Position numbers and translations under genes: made by a program. DNA of 59,444 nucleotides. It comes from Mycoplasmoidaceae bacterium. Lineage in GTDB: Bacteria; Bacillota_I; Bacilli_A; Mycoplasmatales; Mycoplasmoidaceae. The stretch spans positions 1 through 59,444 of the forward strand of contig JAZRVJ010000041.1 of the NCBI GenBank assembly GCA_045599065.1, read 5' to 3'. The notes below the pieces were generated by a model, which was not told where the DNA came from, did no database searches, and worked only from the letters and a program-made list of their open reading frames with translations. This document shows, one piece after another, positions 27,575 to 59,444 of this stretch. Positions within the stretch are counted from its first letter, which is position 1, and each line of letters starts with the position of its first letter.

Positions 27575-27949
27575 CCCTATGCCTAACATAACCCATGTTC
27601 TGTTTAAGGTCAATCATTTATCTATAAAGCAATTTGGTGTCGTAAGGACATTTTTACAACTACTTTATCAACCTATTAATTCAATTCTTAATAGATCATT
27701 CCCTTACCATAATTTAGGTTTCTTGCTTGTGGGGTTTACCGCGTTTCATCTAATTATTTCTAATTAGCTCGTCTCTGTGGTACTATTAAAGTCTTGTCAT
27801 GGTATTTGCTACTTTAGACTAAACTTTCCGTCTTTTAGGAAGCTGTGGCTTATTTATTAACCACACACAATCACTACAAGGTTAGCACCTTGTGCAAGCA
27901 TGGAGTTTCCTCTATTGTTGCCAACAGCGATTGACTGTTAGGCCATAGT
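27575..27949 (-). ncRNA. rnpB: RNase P RNA (type B)
   Basis: The minus strand reads ...GGCCTAACAG..AGAGGAAACTCCATGCTTGCACAAGGTGCTAACCTTGTAGTG ... ACGGAAAGT ... ACAGAACATGGGTTATGTTAGGC. This closely parallels the conserved P4/P5 core of the Bacillus-type RNA (GAGGAAAGUCCAUGCUCGCACGGUGCUGAG; ACAAAACAUGGCUUAC). The P1 ends pair (GGCCTAACA / TGTTAGGC). A terminator hairpin lies at 27552..27574. The ends are accurate to about 10 nt. Confidence 0.85.
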
Positions 27950-45870: not shown

Positions 45871-45932
45871 TTATATTTTGTTGAGTTTTATTATATATAT
45901 ATATATAATAAAAGTGAGGGAATTAAAAAAAT

Positions 45933-47132
45933 ATGAAAAAAATTAACAAGTTAATGCCATTTTTGGGTGTTGGTATAGCTGGTGTGTCTCTTGCTCCAGT
46001 TATAACATTAACTTCATGTGGCGAAAAAGTTCGAGAGGTAAAAAACGCAGCTGAATTACGTACTGCTCTTCAAGACACAACAATAGGTGCTATTAGTCTA
46101 AAAAACAGTATACGGATTACAGATCTTGCTGATACTGAGAATGCTTCAGCATTTACAATTAATAGGCCTGTTAAAATTTATGGTAATGGTAATATAATTG
46201 ACGTAAGCGATGAGACTAGAATATGCACTAGCAAAAATAGATCTGTGTTTAATATTGACGTAAGTAAAGAAAAACGAGGTAATATTGTCTTTGACAATCT
46301 TAAAATCTATCTAGAGGCTTCATCTATAGTGTCATCAACAATTATTGCTAATAATATTCAAGGTAGTCATTTAAAATTTAATAAATGCACTGTTAAATCA
46401 AATTGGCAACAAGGTGGAACATGGAAAAGATATTATGCACTCAGAATTGAGCGACATAACATTGAAGAGAGCACTATTACGATCGAAAACGAATCCGATT
46501 TTGAAGGATGAGCAGCTATTTACAATCTTGGTAGTAAGGTTCGTTTAACAGCGAGAAATTCTAAATTTATTGGTGTTAATGATTATGAGTTTAGTGCAGA
46601 TGCTGAATTTGGTACAATTATAGCGTCTGATCATCCTGTTTATATGCCAGGATGATCTGGCTTGGATGCTCACTGCTTTAGTGCTGATAATGATTTTAAA
46701 TTTACATCATGCACAATCGAAGCTCAAACTACATATTATGCCGCTGGGGCGGAAGTAAATCCAATGTATCAATTACTTGTTGCAAATAGATCTGCCGCAA
46801 ACAACACAGTAACTGTTGATGAAAGTTGCACATGCACAAGAAATTTGAAAGCTTCTAGTCCTTTCTTTGATACTTGGTTTGCTACGATTGATCCTAATCG
46901 ATGCACTAGTTATGATAGTACAATTACAGTGGATTTAATTAACAATTATAGTGGTTCTGATAAACCTAGTGATTTTCCTGAAAATATAACTAGTGTTGCT
47001 GATGATTATTTTGGTTACTACGCAACAAGAGACAAACTATCTAAAATAATTGTTCCAGATAAATGGGGCAAAACAAGACATAATGGCCTTCATGGAATAA
47101 ATAGTGATCTTGTATTCATTCCACACGAATAA
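45933..47132 (+). CDS. lipoprotein with predicted right-handed beta-helix-like repeats (unknown function)
   Basis: Pieces 45933 and 46662 share one frame (TGA joins). It has a signal peptide plus lipobox (VITLTSCGEK). The N-terminal pattern AAELRTALQD..ISLKNSIRI..INRPVKIYGNGNIIDV and recurring short beta-strand-like segments fit a beta-helix. Confidence 0.6.
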
Positions 47133-47184: not shown

Positions 47185-47261
47185 TGGCGCGCCAGAGAGG
47201 ATTCGAACCTCCGACCACGCGCTTAGAAGGCGCGTACTCTATCCAACTGAGCTACTGGCAC
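47185..47261 (-). tRNA. tRNA-Arg (anticodon UCU)
   Basis: The reverse complement is GTGCCAGTAGCTCAGTTGGATAGAGTACGCGCCTTCTAAGCGCGTGGTCGGAGGTTCGAATCCTCTCTGGCGCGCCA. It folds as a cloverleaf with a 7-bp acceptor stem, anticodon loop CTTCTAA, T-loop TTCGAAT and an encoded CCA. Confidence 0.9.
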
Positions 47262-49261: not shown

Positions 49262-49285
49262 AATGTATATGTTGGAGGTTTTAAT

Positions 49286-51652
49286 ATGAAAAACCAAACT
49301 AATAAAAATTTATTAATCACTAGAGGAGTGATTTGCTACCCTAATGTTGCTAAGACAATAGAGATAGCAAGAGATATTTCTTTAAAAACAGTCCATGATG
49401 CTTATGATCATGGTAAAGAGATATTGATTACTGCGCAAATCAATCCTAAGCTAGATGAAGTTAAAAAGATCGATGAAATCTATAACATCGGTGTTTTAGC
49501 TAAAATTGAAAAGATCGAACTTAAAGGTAATGAAATGGCTTTGACAATTATGCCAAAGTCAAGAGTCTTACTAAATGCTATCTATATAGATAGCAACAAG
49601 AAACTAATTAAGGCTGACTATACCTTAATTAATGACTCTCAACTATACAAAATAGACGAATCAAAAGAATTTGACACTTTATTAGAATTACTAGTTAGGT
49701 ATGACAACAAGTTAGCAGCAAGAATCAAAAACATTGTTGTAGATCATGAAAAACAAGGTAAAACAGTAGACTTCATAGACTTAGTCTATGAAATAGCTAA
49801 TGCTTTACCTGTTCACTTTGATCAAAAGCAACAAATTCTTGCCTTGAATACTTTGCCTTTAAAGATTGATGCTTTAAATGGTATGTTATCTAATCCTAAT
49901 GATTTATCTAAAGTAGAAAAAGAAGTTAACCGTAAGCTTAATGAAAGCTTAAATAAACAACAAAGAGAGTTCTATCTAAGAGAAAAGATGAGAACAATTA
50001 AGGAGGAATTAGGTGAAATTTCTTCTACAGCTAATGATTCAACAAAGTTTAGAGCAAAATTAAGATCTAATCCTTATCCTAAAAATATTAAGGAAAAGCT
50101 TGAATCAGAAATTAACCATCTAGAATCTTCTAACCCTCAAGAAAGTTCAATGATTAGAACTTATATTGAATGATTATTAAATCTTCCTTGATGACAAGAA
50201 AATAAAGACAATGATGACTTTAGTAAGGTTAAAAAGACTTTAGATGCATCCCACTATGGATTAACTAAAGTTAAAGAAAGAATTATTGAATACTTAGCAG
50301 TGAGAGCTAAATCAAAAAACACTAAAGCACCAATTATCTGTTTAGTTGGTCCTCCTGGTGTTGGTAAATCATCATTAGCTAAATCTATTGCTGATGCTTT
50401 AAATAAACCATTTGTAAAGATGGCTTTAGGGGGTGTTAAAGATGAAGCTGAAATTAGAGGTCATAGAAGAACCTATTTAGGTTCTATGCCAGGTAGAATT
50501 ATAAAAGCAATGAAAAAAGCTGGTGTAGTTAACCCGCTATTCTTGCTTGATGAAGTAGACAAGATGTCTTCTGATCAAAGAGGTGATCCTGCTTCAGCTA
50601 TGCTTGAAGTTCTTGATCCAGAACAAAACTCAAGATTTAGCGATAACTATATTGAAGAAGATTATGACTTATCTAAAGTTATGTTCGTAGCTACTGCAAA
50701 CTATGCAGAACAAATTCCTGCTGCATTGTATGATAGATTAGAAATTATTGAACTTACAAGCTATACAGAACTTGAAAAATTAGCTATTGCTAAACAATAT
50801 CTAATTCCTAAAGTTTTAAAAGATTGTGGTTTAAGCAAGAAAGATCTAACTTTCAAAGATGATGCTTTAATGTTTATGATTAGACACTATACATTAGAAG
50901 CAGGCGTCAGAGAACTTGAAAGAATCATTAGAAAGATAGCAAGAAAGTTTGTAGTTGAACAACTATCTAATAAAAAGATTCAACCAAAGACTATAGATAT
51001 CAAGGAAGCTAAGTTCTATCTTGACAAGGAAATTTATGAATATACCTTAAAAGATAAAGAAGGTATTCCAGGTGTAGTTAATGGTATGGCATATACTTCA
51101 GCAGGTGGTGACTTACTTCAAATTGAAGTAACTCACTTCAAAGGTAAAGGTAATGTTAAGATTACTGGTAACCTAAAAGAAACTATGAAGGAATCAGCTG
51201 AAGTTGCTTTAGGTTTTGTTAAAGCTAATGCAAAGAAATTTGGTTTAGATAAAGTAGACTTTAGTAAAACCGATATTCATATCCATGTTCCAACAGGGGG
51301 TATACCTAAAGATGGTCCATCAGCTGGTGTAACATTGACAACCGCTATTATCTCCGCTTTAAGTAATAGACCTGTTAAAGCTACATTATCTATGACAGGT
51401 GAAATTACCTTAAGAGGTAAAGTCTTAATCATTGGTGGAGTAAAAGAAAAGACTATCTCTGCTCACAGAGGTGGAGTAAACACAATCATTATTCCTGCAA
51501 GAGATGAAAGATTTTTAAAAGATGTACCTAATGAAGTCTTAGACAACATTACAGTACATCTAGTTGAAGACTACGAAGAAATCTATTCAATTGTCTTCTT
51601 AAACAAAGTCTTGAAAAAGACAAGAACAATTGTTGGCAAAAACTCTAAATAG
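49286..51652 (+). CDS. lon: ATP-dependent Lon protease
   Basis: Pieces 49286 and 50300 share one frame, giving 788 aa. It has Walker A (GPPGVGKSS) and the protease Ser motif (PKDGPSAGV). Confidence 0.96.
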
Positions 51653-52205
51653 CTTTTGCACACACAGTAAAGGTATAGGTGTTACCACCTATGCCTTTTT
51701 GACATTCATAGGTATCTTTACCATCTGTGTAAGCTAAGTTATTTTTTACTTCAATAAGTTTTCAATTATTAAAATCTGGTGCTTTACCATATTCATTGAA
51801 ATAACACTTATAAAAGCTTTCTTTGCTTACTCATAGTAATAGAAAGAACAAAGGATCTTGATGGGTTTCAAATCAAGCTCTTTCTGAGCTAGAAAAGTGT
51901 TTAGAAGCTATCTCTTTATAGTTTGTAGGTACATCACTGTTAGCTTGAGCATCTATACCTACAAATCATTTAGCAATAAAGATCATGGTGCTTCCTCTTG
52001 GATGAGTTACAGAGAAGTATCATTTTTGTTTATCTGTAACAATTTGATTGTTACAAATAATAGCATTTTGTAAGTTAAATGATTTGATAAAGTTAGATAG
52101 TAATTCATTCTTACTATCAGTTTGTACTTTTCTTTTTTCTGTCCCTATAAGATTCTTATCATAATCTTTATGAACTAATCTACAATCTAAAAAACTTCTT
52201 CCCAT
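51645..52205 (-). CDS. 4'-phosphopantetheinyl transferase, Sfp-type (divergent)
   Basis: I extended piece 52020..52205 by hand through 5 TGA codons to TAG at 51645-51647, giving 186 aa. Motifs YFSVTHP, VGIDAQ and WVSKESFYK fit (V/I)G(I/V)D ...~40 aa... W(S/C/T)xKE(S/A)xxK. It has its own TATAAT and a GGAG 6 nt upstream of the ATG. Confidence 0.6.
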
Positions 52206-52231
52206 ATTGACTCCGATATATTTATTATAGG

Positions 52232-52258
52232 AAAATAAAAAAGCCGCTAAAGCGGCTT
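52232..52258 (-). terminator. rho-independent terminator ending the LRR surface-protein operon
   Basis: The minus strand reads AAGCCGC-TTTA-GCGGCTT followed by TTTTTTATTTT. It begins 3 nt after the gene A stop. Confidence 0.75.
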
Positions 52259-52261
52259 AAT

Positions 52262-54373
52262 TTATTGGGGGTCGTTATATCCTCATTTGTGTTGGTTAAA
52301 GTATCAATCTGCTGGACCACCGCTACCTATAGATGTTTTTGTCTCTTGGAATACACGTTCAAAAGCACCCTCAGCAACATTCGATAATGCAGTTGGGTCA
52401 ATTATTAAATGTTGATATGGGCCAGCTCAAGGTGTATCTTCGCTAGGATCTCCTGTTTGTGTTGTATCATCCCTAATATCCAAGTTCACACAACCATTAA
52501 ATAAATAAGCACACGCATATTTTCCATATTGAACATCTGACACAGTTGGGAATGTATCTAATATTATTGGATCAGTAGAAATAATTCCCTCACAACCAGA
52601 ATACATATATGCATAACAATAGTCAGCTGCAACATTAGTTGGTAGCATATGTGCCACGGTTAATGCCACACAATCTTGATACATATTTCTACAACAGCTA
52701 TCAGCTAATGTAACATTTCCACTATCGGGAAAAGATGGTGCTGTTGTCATTGCTTCGCAGCCCTGAAACATACCATAATAACAATAAGGGGCAAGGGTAT
52801 GCGCACCAAGCCATGAAGTGGATAATGCATCTTCAATGCCAAGTTTTTCACAAAAGGCAAACATTTTGTAATAACATCCTGTAGCCAATACATCAACACT
52901 AAGTTGAGGAATTTCAGTTAAAGTTATACAATGATAAAACATATATCTAAAACAATATGGTTGTAACGAAGTTGCACCAATTGTAGGTAAACCTTCATCC
53001 GTAAGTGCTTCGCAATTATAAAACATTGATTCGTAACAACTAGTTGCCGTTGTAGTTGATGGAAGATTTGGGGCTTTCTCAAGGTTTTTGCAACCATAAA
53101 ACATTTCTTGATAGCAATTATATGCTTCTGTAGTAGCATCTCCAATATTAGCATTTAATTCTAAATTAGATGCATCAACAAGTGCATTACATACAGAAAA
53201 CATATTTGCATAACAAAGTGGTGCTAATTTAGTTGCAGGTAATAGTGCATCGCCTAATATTTTCAAATTTGAACAATTTGAAAACATTGCACAATAACAC
53301 CCATAAGCCAATGTATCTGCTTTATCAAATATTCCACTATCTAATTCAACAATACCAGAACATCCTTCAAACATTCCGTAATAACAATACATTGAAAGTT
53401 TAGAAGCGTTCAGCAAGTTTTTAGGGACTGTTTTAAGGCCATGGCAACCCATGAACATTCCTGCATAGCAACATGTACACCCTACCCCAGGTTCAGAACT
53501 TCCAACAAATAAATCTTGCGCTGGTAGTAATGATTTTGGGAAGTCGGTTAATCTTGTACAATCCGAAAACATATATGCGTAGCAATATTTTTTCAAAGTC
53601 GTTGCTGGTAGGAAATTAGATGAAATAGAAACTATTCCGGAACATCCTTCAAACAATTTATAGAAACAATAATCGCTTGGAATCTCGGTCATTTTTCCTT
53701 TACCATCATCAAGTAATGTCATTACATTACCTGTTAAACTAACAGATCCACCAATCGAGAATGACGTGTAATCAGTTTCGGAAGTACTAAAAACATATTT
53801 TCCAGTCTCCTCATTGAAATTGTTACCTCTAAAATATAACACTGACCCTGATGAAATGTTAAGTACTTGACCTTCTTCGTATGGTGTTCAAGTAATTCCA
53901 TTAGTTGAAAATGATATATTAGGAACAGTAGTACCATGGTTGACAATAGATACTGTAGAATTTTCAATTGCTGATAAACCTACGCAGTCACCTAGTTCAA
54001 TATCATTTTCAAAATATGGGTACACTTCCATCCCATCATCAGGAATAATATAGTCATCCTCAATCCTAACAAATTTACCTGCCGATATTTTTCTCATTCA
54101 ATAAGTGACTACATATTGGTTTTTATATGCTAAAGGTGTGGACACAGTGCAAAATTGTCTTCCTGCCTTCGCTCTTACGGTTGTTGAACCAGACCAAGTA
54201 ATTTTTTGAGCTTCTTCTTCGTCTTTTGGTAAGAATTTGATAGTGACATATGAAGCAGTTTTAGGATCTGATGATTTTTCGTTTGATTTATAGCTATTGC
54301 ATGAGGAAACAGTAGCTAAAGTTGTGGTAGCTAACGGTGCTAATAGTATGGAAATTAATATTTTTCTTTTCAT
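52262..54373 (-). CDS. lipoprotein A: Cys-rich LRR-type repeat surface protein (703 aa)
   Basis: ORF-track pieces 54098..54373, 53888..54097 and 52427..53842 share one frame and are joined by TGA. I extended the 3' end through 3 more TGA codons to TAA at 52262-52264. It has a signal peptide plus lipobox (LATVSSC). It carries 14 copies of C-[YF]-x-x-[ML]-[FY]-x-x-C. Confidence 0.8.
52490..53668 (-). repeat. protein-level tandem array of 14 Cys-rich repeats of about 23-30 aa inside gene A
   Basis: Motifs in order: CFYKLFEGC, CYAYMFSDC, CYAGMFMGC, CYYGMFEGC, CYCAMFSNC, CYANMFSVC, CYQEMFYGC, CYESMFYNC, CFRYMFYHC, CYYKMFAFC, CYYGMFQGC, CRNMYQDC, CYAYMYSGC, CAYLFNGC. Many are preceded by LPA(T)xL. 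Confidence 0.85.
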
Positions 54374-54382
54374 TATAAACTC

Positions 54383-56707
54383 CTAATTGCAATAAACATA
54401 ATATTGAGATGTTGGTGTGACAAATGCAGTTGTAAGAGCATCATCATAAGTAAACATGTTGTAAACATAATAATGTGTTGGTTGATCTTTATCATCAACA
54501 TATTGTGGGCATCGTCAGAAATATTTTGATGGTCTGGTTCGACTCTCGCCAAATTTTTGTCTTGTTCTACTAGCAACACTAGCAAATGTTTGAAAACAAC
54601 ACCAATCTGCAAGTGTAGTCAATCCAATTGTACCAATTGAAGTAATGCTTTTGCAATTTTGAAACATTGAGTAATAGCACCCTTTCGCAGCTTCAGTTGC
54701 TGGCAAGCTAGGTGAGGCAGTTAAGGTTGTACATCCCGAAAACATATGTTGGTAACAAAATTCACCTAAAACATTTGCTTCTAATGTGGGTGTTTGAATC
54801 AAAGAAGCACAGCCAGAAAACATACTTTGATAACAATAATTTGTCAAAGTTTTTGCCGGAAGTTTAGGTGCTTTAGTAAGGCTTGAACATTCACTAAATA
54901 AACTAGCATAGCATCCTTTTTTTAGATTTGATGATGGCAAATAATCATCGCTAATAGAAGTAATATATTCATTACCGCTAAACACTTTATTAAAGCAATA
55001 ATCTGTTGGTATATTAGTCATTATGCCTCTACCATCATCTACTAAACTCATAATCGTTCCACCCAATGTGACACTAAGGTTCCCACCAGAAGTTTTTGGT
55101 TTAAAGGTAATATGAGCGTAAGCATCATTTGTTGGTGCACTTAATCCATTAGGATTATTGCCTTTGATGTAATATGTTGTAGATCCTGTTGTCGATCCTA
55201 TATCAATATCTGCGCCTGGTCACATTTTTAATCATGCTTTTCCATCAGTAGAATATTTTAATTCAGGAATGTTTCCTTCCCCTACATAATTTCAACTTAA
55301 AACTGCTGGAGAATCTACTGTTACTTTAGTACATTTATCCAAACTAATTGCTTTTATTTCAATTTGTTTTTCAGCCTTGACACCTGACCCATCTGTGGCA
55401 AGACATGTAATTGTAATTTTTTGTCCTGCGGCTGTTGGTGCAACACCTGTCACAATACCTGTGTCGGGGTTAACTTGTGCAAATCTTGCATCAGAAGATG
55501 TCCATGTTACTCGTTGAGAGTGCCCCTCAGCAATAACTGCATTAAATTTATAAGGATGGTTAACTACACATCCATTAGCAACACTTTCATCTGTGGTAAT
55601 AGTAATGCCGCCTTCAGGGGTAGGAGCATCAATGTTTCAATCATTAGGAATTGAACTAGGCCCTCTTGATCCTGGTGCTGTTCCATTATAAACTATTTCC
55701 CCCGTTGTAGAAACACCCGCTAACCAATTTTCAAAACAATTATCATTAAATGCTTCAGCGCCTAACTTAACAAGATTTAATGATGAACACCCATTAAACA
55801 TGTTAGCATAGCAACCACCAGCAGCATTTGTCGGACTTACCTCTTTTGTTGGAAGGGTAGGGGCTGTCATTAATGATGTACATCCTCCAAACATTCCATC
55901 ATAGCAATGCGGTTGTAGTGTAGTCGCTGGTAAAAATGTATCAGAGATATATTTGATTGCACTGCCACCCGAAAATAAGTGATAAAAGCAATATTCAGAA
56001 CCATTAGGTATTTGTTTGATTGTTCCTTCAGCATTATCGAGCAAACCCATGATATTACCACCTACGTTTACAGCTGCATCAGGTTCTGTGAATGTAAAGT
56101 GTGTGTACTTTGTTGTACTTTCACTGAAACCTAATTCATTATCACCTCGGAAGAATACATTACCACCTGGATTTAAATGAACTGAAGGAGTAACACCTGG
56201 ATCACTAATCTTCGTTCAATGTTCACCGTAGTCAGTTGTTCAACCAATATCTGCGTCGTCACCGCCTTCTTGCACAATATTAATTGTGGTTTCTTCAATT
56301 GCTGCAAAACCAACACAATTGCTTAAAGTAAGAATATTTTCAAAGATTGGATAAACTGTTAATCCATCTGCAGGGATTAAGAAATCATCAGTAAGATCAA
56401 CTTGTTTTCCAGTACCGTCTATATATACTCATTTAGAAAACTTTTGACCTAGCCTTGTTGCTTTTGGTGCTTTTATACTACAAAATTGTCTCCCAACTTT
56501 TGCTCTAACTCTAGTTGCACCCTCAAATACAACATCTGAATCAAGACCTTGAAATAAAACTATTGTATAAGCAGAATTGTCTTGACTATCGTCAACATCT
56601 ACTTTTTGAGTACAGGATGTTAATGTTGCAAGAACAGGAATAGATGCTACAACTAGCGATGTTGTTGCAAGAGAGACAAGTAATTGTTTTAATTTATTTC
56701 TTTTCAT
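54383..56707 (-). CDS. lipoprotein B: two-module Cys-rich LRR-type surface protein with a central Ig-like domain (774 aa)
   Basis: I translated 56051..56428, 55067..55636 and 54383..54514 by hand. All interruptions are TGA (8 in total), with no TAA or TAG until TAG at 54383-54385. The lipobox is LATLTSC. A Big_2-like segment is present (VTWTSSDARFAQVNPDTGIVTGV...ITITCLATDGSG). Confidence 0.8.
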
Positions 56708-56717
56708 GCTTTATCTC

Positions 56718-59423
56718 CTAAATACTCCCATCAATTAAATGTCTTCAGTTATGGCTTGTACCAGGTATATCTTTAAAGTATTCTGTTACATCATCAAAAT
56801 CACCAGCTGAATAAATAATTTTTAAACCATTAGTATAGACAGCAGGTTGTGTTTCGCTATGAACTGAGAATGATAATGCAGTTCGACCATAATAAACGAA
56901 TGTGTCCATAACAACATTAATAGTAATTGTTGCTGTCATGCCTAAACAACCTTGGAAGAAGCCATCACCACCAATATAATTAACACTTGCAGGAATAGCA
57001 AATGGTTTATCAAATGTTAAACAGTTCATTAAGAATCCATCACCTATTGTTCTTAATGAAGTAGGCATATAGAATGAAGTTGTTGCTGTATCACCGTTGT
57101 TAAATAGGGAACAATTTTCCATAAAGTCTTCACCAATATCTCTAATTGTTGATGGAAGTTTTAATTCTTTATTAAAGTTTGAACATCCAGACATAAATGA
57201 ATTACCGATTTGAATACAATGAACTACGTCAGTAGCAAGTGTTGTTGGATCTTCGGCTCCAAATGTTACATTTTGATTAAATCTGATGCATCCAGCCATG
57301 AAATCATCATCAATAAATGAAACTTTAGTTCCAATGTAAACTGGATAATTGAAACCAGTAGTTGCATCTGTTCTAGATATATATTGTGTTGATTGAGATG
57401 AGTTAACTGGTACTAGTTCTACAGTTCCTTCATGACCAGTTGCTTGGCTGTTTCATGATGTAACTGTATATCAACCAGTGTTTTCTCCACTAGTAATATT
57501 GACACATATTTGATCACTATATAAATCAGATTCTCATGGTTCAAGAATTGAAACAGATAAGGTGTTAGATGTTATTTTTGTTGCACCATATGAAGCTGTA
57601 GCAGTAATTGTAACAACACCATGTTTTGCATTAGCAGGGACAGTTAATTGACATTGCGAACCACTTTTTGTAATTTGTACACCTGTACCTGCAGGGTCAG
57701 AAAGATTCCAATCAATAGTATATGCAGTTGTTGCTGGTGTGACTTCAGCAGTAAATGGTAATATTTCTGCTCCAGAACCTATTACATATTCATCTATTCC
57801 ACCAGAAATAACAATTTCTTCTGGATCAACTATCTTAAAGTGAGGATAAATAGTAGGTATAGTTTGAACTTTTGTATTTGCAGGAATTTCTGTTGCAGTT
57901 TGACTATCAGTAGATGTTCAGAAATCAAATTCATATTCAGGATGACCTGTAACATGAATATTTTGTGACAATGGTAAATCGCCTTCGATTTCACTAAATG
58001 TTTTATCATAATCTACAGTAAGTGGTTTAACACCATCAATTACAATAGTACCACTTCATTGTGTAGATGCAGCAGATGGAGTTACTGTAGCTGTCTTTTG
58101 TGTAACAACCATGTTAACTTCAACAGGTTCAACATCAAAGTCAGTAACATCTACATTAAATTTATAGTTACCTGCCTCAGCATTTGTTCAACTTAAAAGA
58201 CCTTCATCGCCCGTTTGAACATCACCAATATGCAACCAAGCAGGAAGTGTCGCTGGTTCAATTGGTGTTAAAACCCAATTAGCATCAGTAGAAACAATTT
58301 GATCAAACTGATTGTAAATTTCTCACCTATCGCTATCATAAGCTGTCTCGGCATTATTACTTTCAGTATTTATGTATGTTGATCCATCATGAATATGATA
58401 TTCTAATTCTGTGTCTTTTCATTTTGGAATTATGACTGTGTTTTTTGTGAATACATCATTATCTTGTGGCTCTGTTCCTGGTTCACCTTCGGCGTTAGGA
58501 TATGTCCAACAATCAAATTCTCTATGAGAAGATTCAGCTGCTGGAATAATTTCAGCAACAGGAGCATATGGTTTTAAATCAGCTCATGTTGTTACTTTTT
58601 GTGCTTCATTTGCTGATTCATCACCCATAATTACAGTAAATTCAGTTTGACCTAAAAGTGTAACAATATCATCATCATCTTCTTTATAAGGCTCAAAATT
58701 AACTTTTACTGTTGCTTGTGCAACAACTAAATCTAGAGTTGTTGAAGCAGAAACTGTTTTGCCTTCAACCGTAGCTGTACCTGTAATAGTAATCTTGTAT
58801 GGATCATCACTATAAGGCACATTTGCTTCACATGTAACAACACCTGTAGCAGAATCAATTTTAAAATATGTTTCAAGGCCTTCTCTTGTTCATGTAACAC
58901 CTTGTGTAATTGGAATTTCATTAACTACTAAGTGGAATGGATCATCGCTAAAAGTTGTTCTAGCTTGATGGTCAGTTAAAGTTATTAATGATAAACCGCC
59001 AGTCACCTTAGTTTCTGTCTTTAATTCATACACAGCAGTTATAGGAACTGCTGGGTCAACTTCATGACTTGGATCAACATCCCCATTACTTGTTACTCAT
59101 TTTTGAAAATTATAACCGTCCTTGATAGGTCTAGGAAGTTCACCATATGTTGTTCCTTGTTTAACAACTAGTTCAGTTGCGGGAGATGTTTGTCCTTCGA
59201 TGTGTCCACCATTTAAGTCAACAGTAATAGTAACTGTTCCTTGTCCGTGTGGCATCATTGCAAAATAAATTGCAACACCAGAAGCACCAGCTGTAGCAGC
59301 TAGACCTCCTGCTAAAGCAGGAATTCATGCTTTTGATGGTCCTGATAATATTTGTAATTTATATTTTGTCTTATTTAATAAGTTAAAGTACTTTTCAAGG
59401 TCTTTTAGATAGTACTTATCCAT
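56718..59423 (-). CDS. surface protein C: signal-anchored protein with Listeria-Bacteroides-type repeats, Ig-like domains and a C-terminal BspA-type LRR (at least 901 aa)
   Basis: I translated 57300..58583 and 58821..59423 by hand. There are 13 in-frame TGA codons and no TAA or TAG until TAG at 56718-56720. ATG 59423 gives MDKYYLKDLEKYF... with a TM helix (WIPALAGGLAATAGASGVAIYFAMM). The frame is still open upstream to the window edge, so the true start may lie outside. Confidence 0.75.
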
Positions 59424-59444
59424 TTTTCTTTTTTGACTAGCTTT

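What the first reader, a model, noticed from the sequence alone, without database searches (positions are those of the whole stretch)
52232..59444. Hidden three-gene operon of large Cys-rich LRR-type surface proteins (best candidate for a novel system)
The standard-code ORF track shows about 10 disconnected scraps plus alternative-frame noise here. Read with TGA=Trp, the minus strand is continuously coding for three consecutive genes:
- C: 56718..59423 or beyond, at least 901 aa, signal-anchored
- B: 54383..56707, 774 aa, lipoprotein
- A: 52262..54373, 703 aa, lipoprotein

The unit ends at a strong terminator. I translated the unlisted gaps by hand and found 13, 8 and at least 5 in-frame TGA codons and no TAA or TAG. 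These are therefore native table-4 genes, not pseudogenes.

A and B share the same building blocks: a Listeria-Bacteroides-repeat-like head, a beta-rich module, then arrays of an unusual Cys-pair repeat. C shares the Listeria-Bacteroides-type repeats and Ig-like domains but ends in a BspA-type LRR instead. Spot counts give about 38-45% G+C, against roughly 27-37% for many neighbouring lines. No enzyme, transporter or mobile-element gene is interleaved. I cannot match the set to the classical mycoplasma adhesin, Vsp/Vlp, MIB-MIP or DUF285 families from sequence alone.

A three-component, translationally coupled surface complex for host or ligand binding is the simplest hypothesis.
Basis: partly seen in the sequence, partly recalled or inferred. 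Interest (0 to 1): 0.85.

Follow-up and report, generated by a model that had tools for sequence, protein, structure and literature searches.

The report
BspA-type LRR surface-protein operon, gut mycoplasma
The three hidden genes are real and form a conserved operon in an uncultured gut mycoplasma, but they encode membrane-anchored surface proteins of the widespread BspA/TpLRR leucine-rich-repeat type, so this is a new member of a known class of likely adhesins and not a new kind of system.

Summary
Observation confirmed. With TGA read as Trp, the minus strand of 52262..59444 holds three back-to-back genes: C (at least 901 aa), B (774 aa) and A (703 aa). They carry 13, 8 and 5 in-frame TGA codons and no TAA or TAG. 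TGA codons align with Trp residues conserved in standard-code homologues. The stop codons overlap ribosome-binding sites (TAGGAG), and a strong terminator follows A. C is probably cut at its 5' end by the contig end.

Interpretation partly supported. The "unusual Cys-pair repeat" is the 26-residue unit LPATTLAxxCYxxMFxGCTSLTxAP. It belongs to a very large family annotated as "leucine-rich repeat protein", with at least 1790 hits. The members that carry names are Bacteroidales, Paludibacter and Prevotella. Family members match Pfam LRR_5 and the solved structures 4fs7, 4gt6 and TpLRR. C's LRR domain has 8131 relatives.

The C-B-A cassette is conserved in at least seven lineages that use TGA as Trp, those named being gut Mycoplasmoidaceae MAGs. 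It is absent from the same ackA|lon site in CP185406 and Ca. Hennigella equi. The extra G+C (35.3%, not 38-45%) comes from amino-acid composition, not foreign codon usage.

Most likely function is accessory, fast-evolving surface ligand-binding or adhesin proteins. A three-protein complex is untested. Novelty: new member of a known kind. Interest about 0.35.

The parts
56718..59444 (-). Gene C. At least 901 aa from the first ATG at 59423, and the frame stays open to the contig end, so the gene is probably 5'-truncated. It encodes an N-terminally anchored surface protein with a C-terminal BspA-type LRR.
   Evidence: Table-4 ORF with 13 TGA codons and stop TAG. The alignment to the CP185407 orthologue runs upstream of the first ATG. 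Pfam gives Flg_new at 27.8 bits and LRR_5 at 27.3 bits.
59253..59327 (-). Hydrophobic transmembrane anchor of C, sequence WIPALAGGLAATAGASGVAIYFAMM (residues 33-57).
   Evidence: Read from the sequence. The segment is conserved in the CP185407 orthologue as WIPALLGGLATTGGATGAAVYFA. The L066 C-like protein has the same kind of anchor. No topology predictor was run.
59085..59231 (-). Listeria-Bacteroides repeat (Flg_new) in C, residues 65-113.
   Evidence: Pfam PF09479, E 2.8e-6, 27.8 bits against a gathering score of 27. The TGA at residue 109 sits at the Trp of GYNFQKW; that this is the conserved Trp of the repeat is from my own knowledge of the family.
56748..57452 (-). C-terminal LRR domain of C (residues 658-892). 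It is the only part of C conserved among the C-like proteins.
   Evidence: phmmer against 1.84 billion representatives gives 8131 hits at E<=1e-3. The top hits match LRR_5 at E 1e-23 to 1e-50. PDB 4fs7 matches at E 6.7e-9. Orthologues are 30-44% identical in this part only.
56708..56720 (-). C/B junction, TAGGAGATAAAGC then ATG. The stop codon of C overlaps an AGGAG ribosome-binding site, and 10 nt separate the genes.
   Evidence: Sequence read. A Shine-Dalgarno-like GGAG lies in each C/B spacer of the orthologous loci, but there it does not overlap the stop codon.
54383..56707 (-). Gene B, a 774-aa lipoprotein. Layout: Flg_new-like head (47-124), beta-sandwich (132-217), LRR array 1 with C-cap (about 236-360), Ig-like Big_2 (368-449), second beta-sandwich (460-550), LRR array 2 (565-705), low-confidence tail (709-774).
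   Evidence: Table-4 ORF with 8 TGA codons. AF2 model has pLDDT 81.7 and pTM 0.63. Big_2 scores E 3.1e-4. Foldseek matches Big_2-CBM56 7quz at E 2e-5 and the InlB B-repeat 2y5p. Orthologues are 39-42% identical over the full length.
54374..54385 (-). B/A junction, TAGGAGTTTATA then ATG. The stop codon of B overlaps an AGGAG ribosome-binding site, and 9 nt separate the genes.
   Evidence: Sequence read. Orthologous junctions read TAGGAGATAAACTATG (L001) and TAGGAGATAGAGTATG (L004); in L003 the two genes are only 2 nt apart.
52262..54373 (-). Gene A, a 703-aa lipoprotein. Layout: Flg_new-like head (about 42-120), Asp-box beta-sandwich (131-215), then a 13-unit LRR solenoid.
   Evidence: Table-4 ORF with 5 TGA codons and stop TAA. 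AF2 model has pLDDT 85.9 and pTM 0.81. Orthologues are 44-46% identical. At least 1790 homologues were found.
52454..53668 (-). LRR array of A (residues 236-640): 13 copies of C[YF]xxMFxxC spaced 26-37 residues apart.
   Evidence: Motif scan. Family consensus is LPATTLAxxCYxxMFxGCTSLTxAP, with the Cys, Tyr, Met and Phe columns at least 90% conserved. A profile of the family matches PDB 4fs7, 4gt6 and 6mlx TpLRR.
52231..52258 (-). Intrinsic terminator ending the operon: 7-bp stem with 5 G-C pairs, 4-nt loop, then a T-rich tail.

Best explanation
The locus is an accessory three-gene operon, in the order C, B, A, of an uncultured gut mollicute. The organism belongs to Mycoplasmoidaceae and is related to Candidatus Hennigella.

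**What the proteins are**
The operon encodes three surface proteins anchored in the membrane by their N-termini. A and B are lipoproteins. C has a signal-anchor helix. Each displays a BspA/TpLRR-type (Pfam LRR_5-like) leucine-rich-repeat solenoid on small beta-rich stalk domains: a Flg_new-like head, an Asp-box beta-sandwich and a Big_2 Ig-like domain.

The repeat in A and B is a 26-residue LRR_5 variant. In it the canonical Ile of LRR_5 is replaced by a second Cys. My inference is that the two Cys per repeat stack inside the solenoid core as cysteine ladders and do not form disulfides.

**Expression**
The orthologous loci show an ackA terminator and then an AT-rich stretch upstream of C, in which I infer the cassette's own promoter. 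In this window that stretch lies beyond the contig end. B and A have ribosome-binding sites that overlap the preceding stop codon. The unit ends at a strong terminator.

**Function (inferred, not shown)**
The LRR surfaces probably bind host or microbial ligands such as glycoproteins, glycans or matrix, as shown for BspA of Tannerella forsythia. The proteins would then act as adhesins or colonisation factors. They evolve fast and are gained or lost between related species.

**Origin (inferred)**
The LRR and beta-sandwich module is shared with a very large family whose named members are gut Bacteroidales. It was probably acquired from that family long ago and has since been fully adapted to mollicute codon usage.
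For: **Genes are real and use table 4:**

**Operon anatomy:** the 9-10 nt spacers, the TAGGAG overlaps and the terminator. The orthologues have an ackA terminator followed by an AT-rich stretch (my reading: the promoter region) in front of C.

**Family**
- A has at least 1790 homologues. The full-length ones, 40-46% identical, include NCBI Mycoplasmoidaceae MAG proteins; the other close ones come from unnamed metagenome assemblies. The remainder are 1000-1200 aa proteins with PF13306. Those that carry names are 'leucine-rich repeat protein' of Paludibacteraceae, Bacteroidales or Prevotella.
- Homologues pass the LRR_5 gathering score: P0002 at 77.9 bits and the orthologue P0005 at 28.7 bits. 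One has a weak, sub-threshold match to the T9SS sorting tail.
- A profile of the family matches 4fs7, 4gt6 and TpLRR 6mlx in the PDB. The first Cys aligns to the Ile of LRR_5.
- C's LRR has 8131 relatives, and the top ones are strongly LRR_5.

**Structure**
- The AF2 models are confident, with pLDDT 85.9 for A and 81.7 for B.
- Foldseek gives LRR proteins for A, but only weakly. For B it gives Big_2-CBM56 and the InlB B-repeat.

**Conserved cassette**
- C-like, B-like and A-like genes appear in the same order in CP185407, JAZLIQ01, JAZRUX01, L065, L066/L067 and L068. All have many TGA codons and no internal stops. At least three different sets of flanking genes are seen.

**Accessory status**
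- At the same site in CP185406, lon and ackA are about 25 nt apart. In Ca. Hennigella equi the site holds only an unrelated 215-aa lipoprotein.

**Fast evolution**
- A and B orthologues are 39-46% identical, while Lon is 83-84% and AckA 90-94% identical.

**Native codon usage**
- GC3 is 0.17 in the trio and 0.20 elsewhere. GC2 is 0.44 against 0.32.

**Known functions of the class**
- BspA binds TLR2 and gp340 and mediates attachment, invasion and coaggregation. Ca. M. girerdii carries 26 BspA-like proteins (PMC4206474).
Against: - No expression, localisation or ligand data exist for any member of this cassette or for the Bacteroidales subfamily.
- A and B themselves do not reach Pfam's LRR_5 threshold. 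Membership rests on homologues and a profile search.
- The whole-chain Foldseek search for A found no PDB match at E<=0.001.
- Lipoprotein status was read from the lipobox only. Two A-like orthologues (L004, L066) lack the Cys.
- The promoter is not in the window.
- The direction of horizontal transfer is inferred from family size and distribution, not from a phylogeny.
Confidence: 0.7

Rival explanations
1. One reading: A, B and C assemble into one three-component surface complex. Their stoichiometry would be set by translational coupling, and the complex would be the functional binding unit.
For: - Strict C-B-A order is conserved in at least seven lineages and at least three different genomic contexts.
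- A and B are kept as distinct orthologue lines. A orthologues score far better against A than against B.
- The B and A ribosome-binding sites overlap the preceding stop codons.
Against: - No interaction evidence of any kind exists, and no multimer prediction tool was available.
- C-like proteins share only their LRR domain, at 30-44% identity. They switch between lipoprotein and signal-anchor forms.
- L065 carries an extra fourth gene.
- The nearest relative, L005, has shuffled hybrid genes that combine an A-type head with a C-type LRR. This fits modular, independently acting adhesins better than a fixed complex.
Confidence: 0.2
2. The proteins capture glycans or nutrients and do not act as host adhesins. 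In this view the Asp-box beta-sandwiches act as carbohydrate-binding modules, inherited from Bacteroidales surface glycan-binding proteins.
For: - The B model matches the Big_2-CBM56 tandem 7quz at E 2e-5.
- The sandwich carries a BNR/Asp-box-like YSxDGxxW motif. Bacteroidales homologues give BNR and CHB_HEX_C hits at the same place.
- The homologues that carry names come from polysaccharide-degrading Bacteroidales.
Against: - The Foldseek match has a target-normalised TM-score of only 0.39-0.40 and an rmsd of about 11.6 A, and it may be driven by the Big_2 half.
- No transporter or glycosidase gene is linked to the cassette in any of the loci.
- The Pfam hits on the sandwich have no individually significant stretch.
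Confidence: 0.12
3. The locus is a PARCEL/DUF285-type mobile repeat element, or a phase-variable antigen family, whose main role is antigenic variation.
For: - NCBIfam TIGR02167 (PARCEL repeat) scores 30.2 bits against a cutoff of 30 for A. DUF285 scores E 0.09.
- The cassette shows presence/absence variation and fast divergence.
Against: - The PARCEL consensus W[DN]TSNV..M..MF...FNQDIS (PMC2996958) is not the repeat found here.
- TIGR02167 has no individually significant stretch. B scores 13.1 bits and C scores nothing.
- There is no DNA dyad symmetry and there are no near-identical DNA repeats. The repeat units are only 60-79% alike, and Tandem Repeats Finder found only three tiny arrays.
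- There are no paralogues elsewhere in the window and no mobile-element genes nearby.
Confidence: 0.05

Closest known systems
BspA of Tannerella forsythia and the TpLRR / Pfam LRR_5 (PF13306) class, including the solved structures 4fs7, 4gt6 and 6mlx
   Same: - Repeat core aFxgCxxL.
- Surface display, combined with Big_2 Ig-like domains.
- C's LRR and the A/B family profile match LRR_5 proteins and these PDB entries.
   Different: - The A/B repeat is 26 residues long, with a second conserved Cys where LRR_5 has Ile.
- It has an Asp-box beta-sandwich N-cap and a GIPxGW C-cap.
- Anchoring is by an N-terminal lipid or helix. BspA instead has a T9SS C-terminal domain (from my own knowledge).
- Three such genes are arranged in one operon.
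- A and B themselves fall below the Pfam threshold.
Uncharacterised Bacteroidales 'leucine-rich repeat protein' family (for example NLK48507.1, and Paludibacteraceae and Prevotella MAG proteins)
   Same: - Closest sequence relatives outside the Mollicutes, 30-41% identical over 50-76% of A or B.
- Same sandwich, repeat and cap modules. The two-module layout of B is also found in this family.
   Different: - They are larger, at 1000-1350 aa, and use the standard genetic code.
- One scanned member has a weak, sub-threshold match to the T9SS sorting tail.
- Most lack the Flg_new-like head: 33 of 50 have a gap at A residue W92.
- I found no functional study of this family.
BspA-like TpLRR family of Candidatus Mycoplasma girerdii (PMC4206474)
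   Same: LRR_5/TpLRR surface proteins in a host-associated, uncultured member of the same mollicute group. That paper proposes host interaction through TLR2.
   Different: - The girerdii family has 26 dispersed members, mostly with C-terminal transmembrane anchors.
- Here there is a single three-gene cassette with N-terminal anchors.
PARCEL / DUF285 lipoproteins (LppQ of Mycoplasma mycoides; PMC2996958)
   Same: Mollicute surface lipoproteins with tandem repeats of about 25 residues that contain an MF motif, and a patchy distribution suggesting horizontal transfer. A gives borderline hits to TIGR02167 and DUF285.
   Different: The repeat consensus differs (no WDTSNV or FNQDIS motif), the DNA shows no dyad symmetry, and there is no link to mobile elements.
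Listeria internalins (the InlB B-repeat; the InlJ cysteine-ladder LRR)
   Same: - An LRR binding domain plus Flg_new/B-repeat stalk domains. The B model matches InlB B-repeat 2y5p with a target-normalised TM-score of 0.70.
- A Cys occupies a core LRR position, as in InlJ. This is an analogy from my own knowledge, with the reference listed in PMC9525666.
   Different: The LRR class is different (TpLRR, not the internalin type), the order of domains is different, the cell anchoring is different, and there is no significant sequence similarity.

Membership tests
Pfam LRR_5 / BspA-type (TpLRR class) leucine-rich repeat | Match to PF13306 at or above the gathering score of 27.7 bits | tested here: inconclusive
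   - C scores 27.3 bits (E 3.8e-6), just below the threshold. A and B give no hit at E<=1.
- The orthologue P0005 scores 28.7 bits, and the homologues P0002 and P0042 score 77.9 and 53.3 bits.
- The top relatives of C's LRR score 82-170 bits.
Pfam LRR_5 / BspA-type (TpLRR class) leucine-rich repeat | Sequence homology to solved LRR_5/TpLRR structures | tested here: met
   The profile of alignment A1 matches 4fs7 (E 3.6e-10), 4gt6 (7.3e-7) and 6mlx TpLRR (1.9e-3). C alone matches 4fs7 at E 6.7e-9.
Pfam LRR_5 / BspA-type (TpLRR class) leucine-rich repeat | Solenoid fold of stacked short repeats | tested here: inconclusive
   The AF2 model of A is confident over residues 236-640, and its best Foldseek matches are LRR proteins (Nogo receptor, TLR9, SDS22, LRRTM2). 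However, all have E>=0.04. Model coordinates could not be inspected.
PARCEL / DUF285 / TIGR02167 | 25-residue repeat with the W[DN]TSNV..M..MF...FNQDIS consensus, recognised by DUF285 and TIGR02167 | tested here: not met
   - DUF285 scores 13 bits against a cutoff of 25.
- TIGR02167 scores 30.2 against 30 for A with no significant single stretch, 13.1 for B, and nothing for C.
- The repeat consensus differs from the published one.
PARCEL / DUF285 / TIGR02167 | Dyad symmetry of the repeat-coding DNA | tested here: not met
   Only short inverted repeats of 18-37 nt and 70-89% complementarity were found, scattered across the region and not in register with the repeats.
Bacterial lipoprotein (A and B) | N-terminal signal peptide ending in a lipobox Cys | tested here: inconclusive
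   - A ends in ...LATVSSC and B in ...LATLTSC. Most orthologues keep the Cys.
- The NCBIfam lipoprotein signal model reaches only 13.2 bits against 19.3.
- No dedicated predictor was available.
- Two A-like orthologues (L004, L066) lack the Cys.
Flg_new (Listeria-Bacteroides repeat, PF09479) | Match to PF09479 at or above the gathering score of 27 bits | tested here: met
   C residues 65-113 score 27.8 bits. The A and B heads get no Pfam hit. A custom profile of the heads hits the Flg_new repeats of P0121, C and the L066 C-like protein, and the B model matches InlB B-repeat 2y5p.
Big_2 (PF02368) Ig-like domain | Match to PF02368 at or above the gathering score of 22.8 bits | tested here: inconclusive
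   - B scores 21.1 bits (E 3.1e-4).
- B orthologues carry precomputed PF02368 hits.
- Foldseek matches Big_2-CBM56 at E 2e-5.
Operon (single transcription unit) | Co-orientation, short spacers with ribosome-binding sites, a single terminator, and conserved gene order | tested here: met
   Whether there is a single transcript cannot be tested with these tools.
Classical mycoplasma surface systems (MIB-MIP, Vsp/Vlp, P1-type adhesins) | Match to the corresponding Pfam or NCBIfam models | tested here: not met
   No such family appears at E<=1 in Pfam or NCBIfam for A, B or C.

The most novel reading that the evidence does not exclude
The C-B-A cassette may be a dedicated three-component surface apparatus specific to gut Mycoplasmoidaceae. 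In this reading a signal-anchored Flg_new/LRR protein (C) partners with two paralogous double-Cys LRR lipoproteins (A and B). The parts would have been assembled from Bacteroidales-derived modules and kept together as a unit wherever the cassette moves, because the three proteins physically cooperate in binding a host or microbial ligand.
Probability: 0.2. Interest if true: 0.55.

Novelty: new member of a known kind. Interest (0 to 1): 0.35.

Why it matters
These gut mollicutes are known only from metagenomes, and nothing is known about their surfaces. The cassette is a concrete candidate colonisation factor for them. It is conserved yet dispensable, and it evolves far faster than its housekeeping neighbours.

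It also ties a mollicute surface-protein family to a very large, uncharacterised family of Bacteroidales leucine-rich-repeat proteins. Any functional result for one group would therefore inform the other. It adds a case of probable old cross-phylum gene sharing within the gut.

As a practical point, the locus shows how standard-code gene calling breaks such genes into fragments.

None of this changes current understanding. BspA-like LRR proteins, and horizontally spread repeat lipoproteins, are already described in mollicutes.

Tried and rejected
1. **Pseudogenes or chance ORFs.** Rejected by the shuffles and by orthologues free of internal stops.
2. **Recent foreign origin, judged from raised G+C.** Rejected. 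GC3 is native and the excess is at codon position 2.
3. **PARCEL/DUF285 membership.** Rejected.
4. **Slipped-strand or phase variation inside the genes.** No DNA-level repeats were found. The promoter lies outside the window, so variation there could not be checked.
5. **Word-index homology search with C.** It found only one Flg_new protein and not even C's orthologues.
6. **Full-length C as a query.** I used the TGA-free fragment 658-892 instead. C could not be modelled.
7. **Whole-chain Foldseek of the A model.** It gave only weak LRR matches.
8. **A and B heads.** BLASTP of the A head against C's Flg_new repeat, and Pfam scans of the isolated heads and the sandwich, gave nothing. A custom profile was needed.
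9. **The 215-aa lipoprotein at the empty site in Ca. Hennigella equi.** It is not a remnant of the cassette.
10. **Other copies.** No paralogues of A, B or C exist elsewhere in the window.
11. **Cluster look-up for names.** It returned names for only one cluster.

Full report
**1.

The window is 59,444 bp with 31.3% G+C. Read with table 4, it is densely coding on both strands. On the minus strand of 52262..59444 there are three consecutive frames free of TAA and TAG, of 706, 775 and 908 codons.

| Gene | Coordinates (minus strand) | Length from first ATG | In-frame TGA | Stop |
|---|---|---|---|---|
| A | 52262..54373 | 703 aa | 5 | TAA |
| B | 54383..56707 | 774 aa | 8 | TAG |
| C | 56718..59423 or beyond | at least 901 aa | 13 | TAG |

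- Shuffles of the region never gave a table-4 ORF longer than 242 codons. The chance of 703 codons without a stop is about 7.5e-18.
- That TGA encodes Trp is shown directly. The TGA at A residue 162 lies in the motif YSxDGxxW, where 49 of 50 homologues from outside the A-like mollicute group have Trp. The TGA at A residue 690 aligns with Trp in 45 of 50.
- The TGA codons at C residues 109 and 502 sit at the Trp of the motifs GYNFQKW and YEFDFW. That these correspond to the conserved Trp of the Listeria-Bacteroides repeat is from my own knowledge of that family.
- TGA:TGG usage in the trio (26:9) resembles the rest of the window (133:26).

**2. Operon anatomy**

- C's stop codon and B's start read TAGGAGATAAAGCATG. 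B's stop and A's start read TAGGAGTTTATAATG. In both, an AGGAG ribosome-binding site overlaps the preceding stop codon, with spacers of 10 and 9 nt. At the B/A junction, L001 and L004 show the same stop-overlapping TAGGAG and L003 has a 2-nt gap. At the C/B junction the orthologues keep a GGAG in the spacer, but it does not overlap the stop.
- Directly after A's TAA comes a 7-bp G+C-rich hairpin with a T-tract, at 52258..52231.
- The next minus-strand gene (52204..51646) is a separate 4'-phosphopantetheinyl transferase (PF01648, E 5e-12). Next comes the convergent lon gene (49262..51649).
- In the orthologous loci, ackA ends in its own terminator hairpin. An AT-rich stretch, which I read as the promoter region, then precedes the C-like gene. 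The cassette would therefore be its own transcription unit. In this window that region lies beyond position 59444.
- Similarity between C and its CP185407 orthologue continues upstream of C's first ATG (SQKRK aligned with SQKKK). That orthologue has about 64 more residues. C is therefore most likely cut by the contig end.

**3. What the proteins are**

*A and B are paralogues.* They are 37% identical over the first 340 residues, and B contains the module twice.

*Family of A.* A homology search with A returned at least 1790 significant proteins out of 8000 scored.
- The best full-length matches (40-46% identity, 650-740 aa) include three NCBI Mycoplasmoidaceae MAG proteins. The other close ones are from unnamed metagenome assemblies, and every locus I fetched for them uses TGA as Trp.
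- The rest are 1000-1200 aa proteins carrying Pfam LRR_5. Where they have names, these are 'leucine-rich repeat protein' from Paludibacteraceae, Bacteroidales or Paludibacter.
- B gives the same picture, with Prevotella proteins that share its two-module layout.

*Family consensus.* The consensus has three parts. The first is a beta-sandwich N-cap carrying an Asp-box-like motif, YSxDGxxW. The second is a run of 26-residue repeats, LPATTLAxxCYxxMFxGCTSLTxAP. The third is a C-cap, W..GV..TGTF...GIPxGWTV. The Cys, Tyr, Met and Phe columns are at least 90% conserved.

*Link to LRR_5.*
- Homologues pass the LRR_5 gathering score. One scanned Bacteroidales member also has a weak, sub-threshold match to the T9SS sorting tail.
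- A profile of the family matches the solved LRR_5/TpLRR structures 4fs7, 4gt6 and 6mlx.
- In that alignment the second Cys is the canonical LRR_5 Cys of aFxgCxxL. The first Cys replaces the conserved Ile of LRR_5.
- The repeat is thus a variant of a known LRR class, not a new repeat.

*Protein C.*
- The word-index search found no relatives for C.
- A full HMMER scan with its TGA-free C-terminal fragment found 8131 relatives, whose top members are strongly LRR_5.
- C itself matches 4fs7 at E 6.7e-9, LRR_5 at 27.3 bits and Flg_new at 27.8 bits.

**4. Structure models**

| | A | B |
|---|---|---|
| pLDDT / pTM | 85.9 / 0.81 | 81.7 / 0.63 |
| Head | about 42-120 | 47-124 |
| Beta-sandwich | 131-215 | 132-217 |
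| LRR | long solenoid, 236-640 | short LRR plus cap, about 236-360 |
| Ig-like domain | none | 368-449 |
| Second sandwich | none | 460-550 |
| Second LRR | none | 565-705 |
| Tail | | low confidence, 709-774 |

- Foldseek with A gave only weak LRR matches: Nogo receptor, TLR9 and SDS22, all at E 0.04 or worse.
- Foldseek with B matched a Big_2-CBM56 tandem (7quz, E 2e-5). It also matched the InlB B-repeat, which to my knowledge is the prototype of Flg_new (2y5p, target-normalised TM-score 0.70).
- Pfam does not call the A and B heads. A profile built from 17 heads does hit the Flg_new repeats of P0121, of C (residues 97-129, 238-334, 496-530) and of the L066 C-like protein.
The 'Ig-like domains' in C remain unconfirmed.

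**5. Who carries it, and where**

- The window's Lon protein is 92% identical to that of a Mycoplasmoidaceae MAG (L005). It is 83-84% identical to those of CP185407, CP185406, two further MAGs and Candidatus Hennigella equi, a horse-gut MAG (PMC8957277). It is 67-76% identical to those of rumen 'Ureaplasma' MAGs.
- The same order, C-like (792-934 aa), B-like (782-794 aa, Big_2) and A-like (672-726 aa), lies between ackA and the convergent lon in CP185407, JAZLIQ01 and JAZRUX01.
- It also appears in other contexts. In L065 it follows ackA but includes an extra 664-aa lipoprotein gene and is followed by a thioesterase gene. In L066/L067 it has neither ackA nor lon next to it and is followed by an amidohydrolase gene. 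It is also present in L068.
- Every copy has many TGA codons and no internal stops.
- In the complete genome CP185406, lon and ackA are about 25 nt apart with nothing between them. In Ca. Hennigella equi the site holds only an unrelated 215-aa lipoprotein.
- The closest relative, L005, is rearranged around lon. Instead of the cassette it has two hybrid genes that combine an A-type head or Flg_new repeat with a C-type LRR.
- The cassette is therefore conserved as a unit but dispensable, and its modules shuffle.
- A and B orthologues are only 39-46% identical, and C-like proteins share only the LRR. By contrast, Lon is 83-84% and AckA 90-94% identical. This is the pattern expected for exposed surface proteins.

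**6. Composition**

- The region has 35.3% G+C against 30.7% for the rest of the window.
- The excess lies at codon position 2 (0.44 against 0.32). GC3 is at or below the genome mean (0.17 against 0.20).
- It therefore reflects amino-acid composition (my reading: richness in Thr, Ala, Gly, Ser and Cys), not recent import.
- If the module came from Bacteroidales, as its distribution suggests, the transfer is old. The genes have since been fully adapted, including the change of Trp codons to TGA.

**7. What it is not**

- *Not PARCEL/DUF285.* The consensus differs (PMC2996958), the model scores are sub-threshold or borderline, and the DNA shows no dyad symmetry.
- *No sign of slippage-based variation.* The repeat-coding units are only 60-79% alike, and Tandem Repeats Finder found only trivial arrays.
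- *No other surface system.* There is no match to any other classical mycoplasma surface family at E<=1.
- *No other copies.* There are no paralogues elsewhere in the window.

**8. How it most likely works**

*Shown:*
- Three co-oriented, tightly spaced genes with one terminator.
- N-terminal hydrophobic or lipobox leaders.
- LRR_5-class repeat domains on beta-rich stalk domains.
- Conservation as a cassette, presence/absence between species, and fast divergence.

*Inferred:*
- The proteins are displayed on the cell surface.
- Their LRR faces bind host or microbial ligands. BspA of T. forsythia binds TLR2 and gp340 and mediates attachment, invasion and coaggregation. BspA-like families are proposed to do the same in Ca. 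M. girerdii and Trichomonas (PMC4206474).
- The two Cys per repeat probably stack in the solenoid core. The InlJ cysteine ladder is an analogy from my own knowledge.
- The resemblance of the sandwich to a carbohydrate-binding module keeps glycan binding open as a rival.
- A physical three-protein complex is possible, given the conserved order, but it is untested.

**9. Verdict**

The finding is a good catch of genes hidden by the genetic code, and the description of their anatomy is largely right. The locus is a new member of a known kind: BspA/TpLRR-type surface proteins of host-associated microbes, already known in mollicutes. The conserved three-gene layout and the link to Bacteroidales are modestly interesting. 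Interest is 0.35.

Noticed in passing
window 51646-52204 (-): A separate 186-aa gene for a 4'-phosphopantetheinyl transferase (PF01648 ACPS, E 5e-12) lies between the operon terminator and lon. In the orthologous loci A-like and lon are only about 26 nt apart, so this gene is an extra insertion at the same junction.
   Followed up: partly
window 45927-47129 (+): Another predicted lipoprotein (399 aa, leader ...ITLTSC) carries a 'putative pectate lyase-like adhesive domain' (PF20585, E 5.5e-11). It lies between clpB and tRNA-Arg/tig. Relatives have nothing (L003) or a metallophosphatase gene (L004) at this site, so it looks like a second variable surface-protein site.
   Followed up: partly
window 27585-27942 (-) and 47185-47261 (-): RNase P RNA class B (221.6 bits) and a single tRNA-Arg(TCT) are the only RNA genes detected in the window.
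   Followed up: yes
L005 6653-8656 (-) and 8776-9891 (-): The closest species representative (Lon 92% identical) is rearranged around lon. Instead of the cassette it carries two hybrid genes: a 668-aa protein with an A/B-type leader and head plus a C-type LRR, and a 372-aa protein with a Flg_new-like start plus a C-type LRR. This suggests domain shuffling within the family.
   Followed up: partly
L001 5065-5214; L003 4622-4790; L004 4870-4970: The promoter regions upstream of the C-like genes contain TA-rich, partly palindromic tracts, for example GATTATATATATTTATATATAATC. Whether their length varies between strains, which could allow phase variation, was not examined. The equivalent region lies outside the window.
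   Followed up: no
window 54383-54580 (-), B residues 709-774: The C-terminal 66 residues of B are rich in Arg, Tyr and Cys. They replace the canonical GIPxGW cap and are modelled with pLDDT below 50. Alignment to B orthologues stops near residue 735.
   Followed up: no
L065 2559-4553 (+): One lineage has a four-gene version of the cassette, with an extra 664-aa lipoprotein gene between ackA and the C-like gene. Its C-terminus is weakly similar to C's LRR (E 2e-10).
   Followed up: partly
L001 528-1385 (+); L003 18409-18954 (-): Genes for the abortive-infection or toxin domains AbiEii and ToxN lie within about 10 kb of the cassette in two related genomes.
   Followed up: no
window 57349-57846 (+): A 166-codon table-4 ORF lies antisense to gene C. 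It is probably a by-product of the composition of the coding strand and was not examined further.
   Followed up: no
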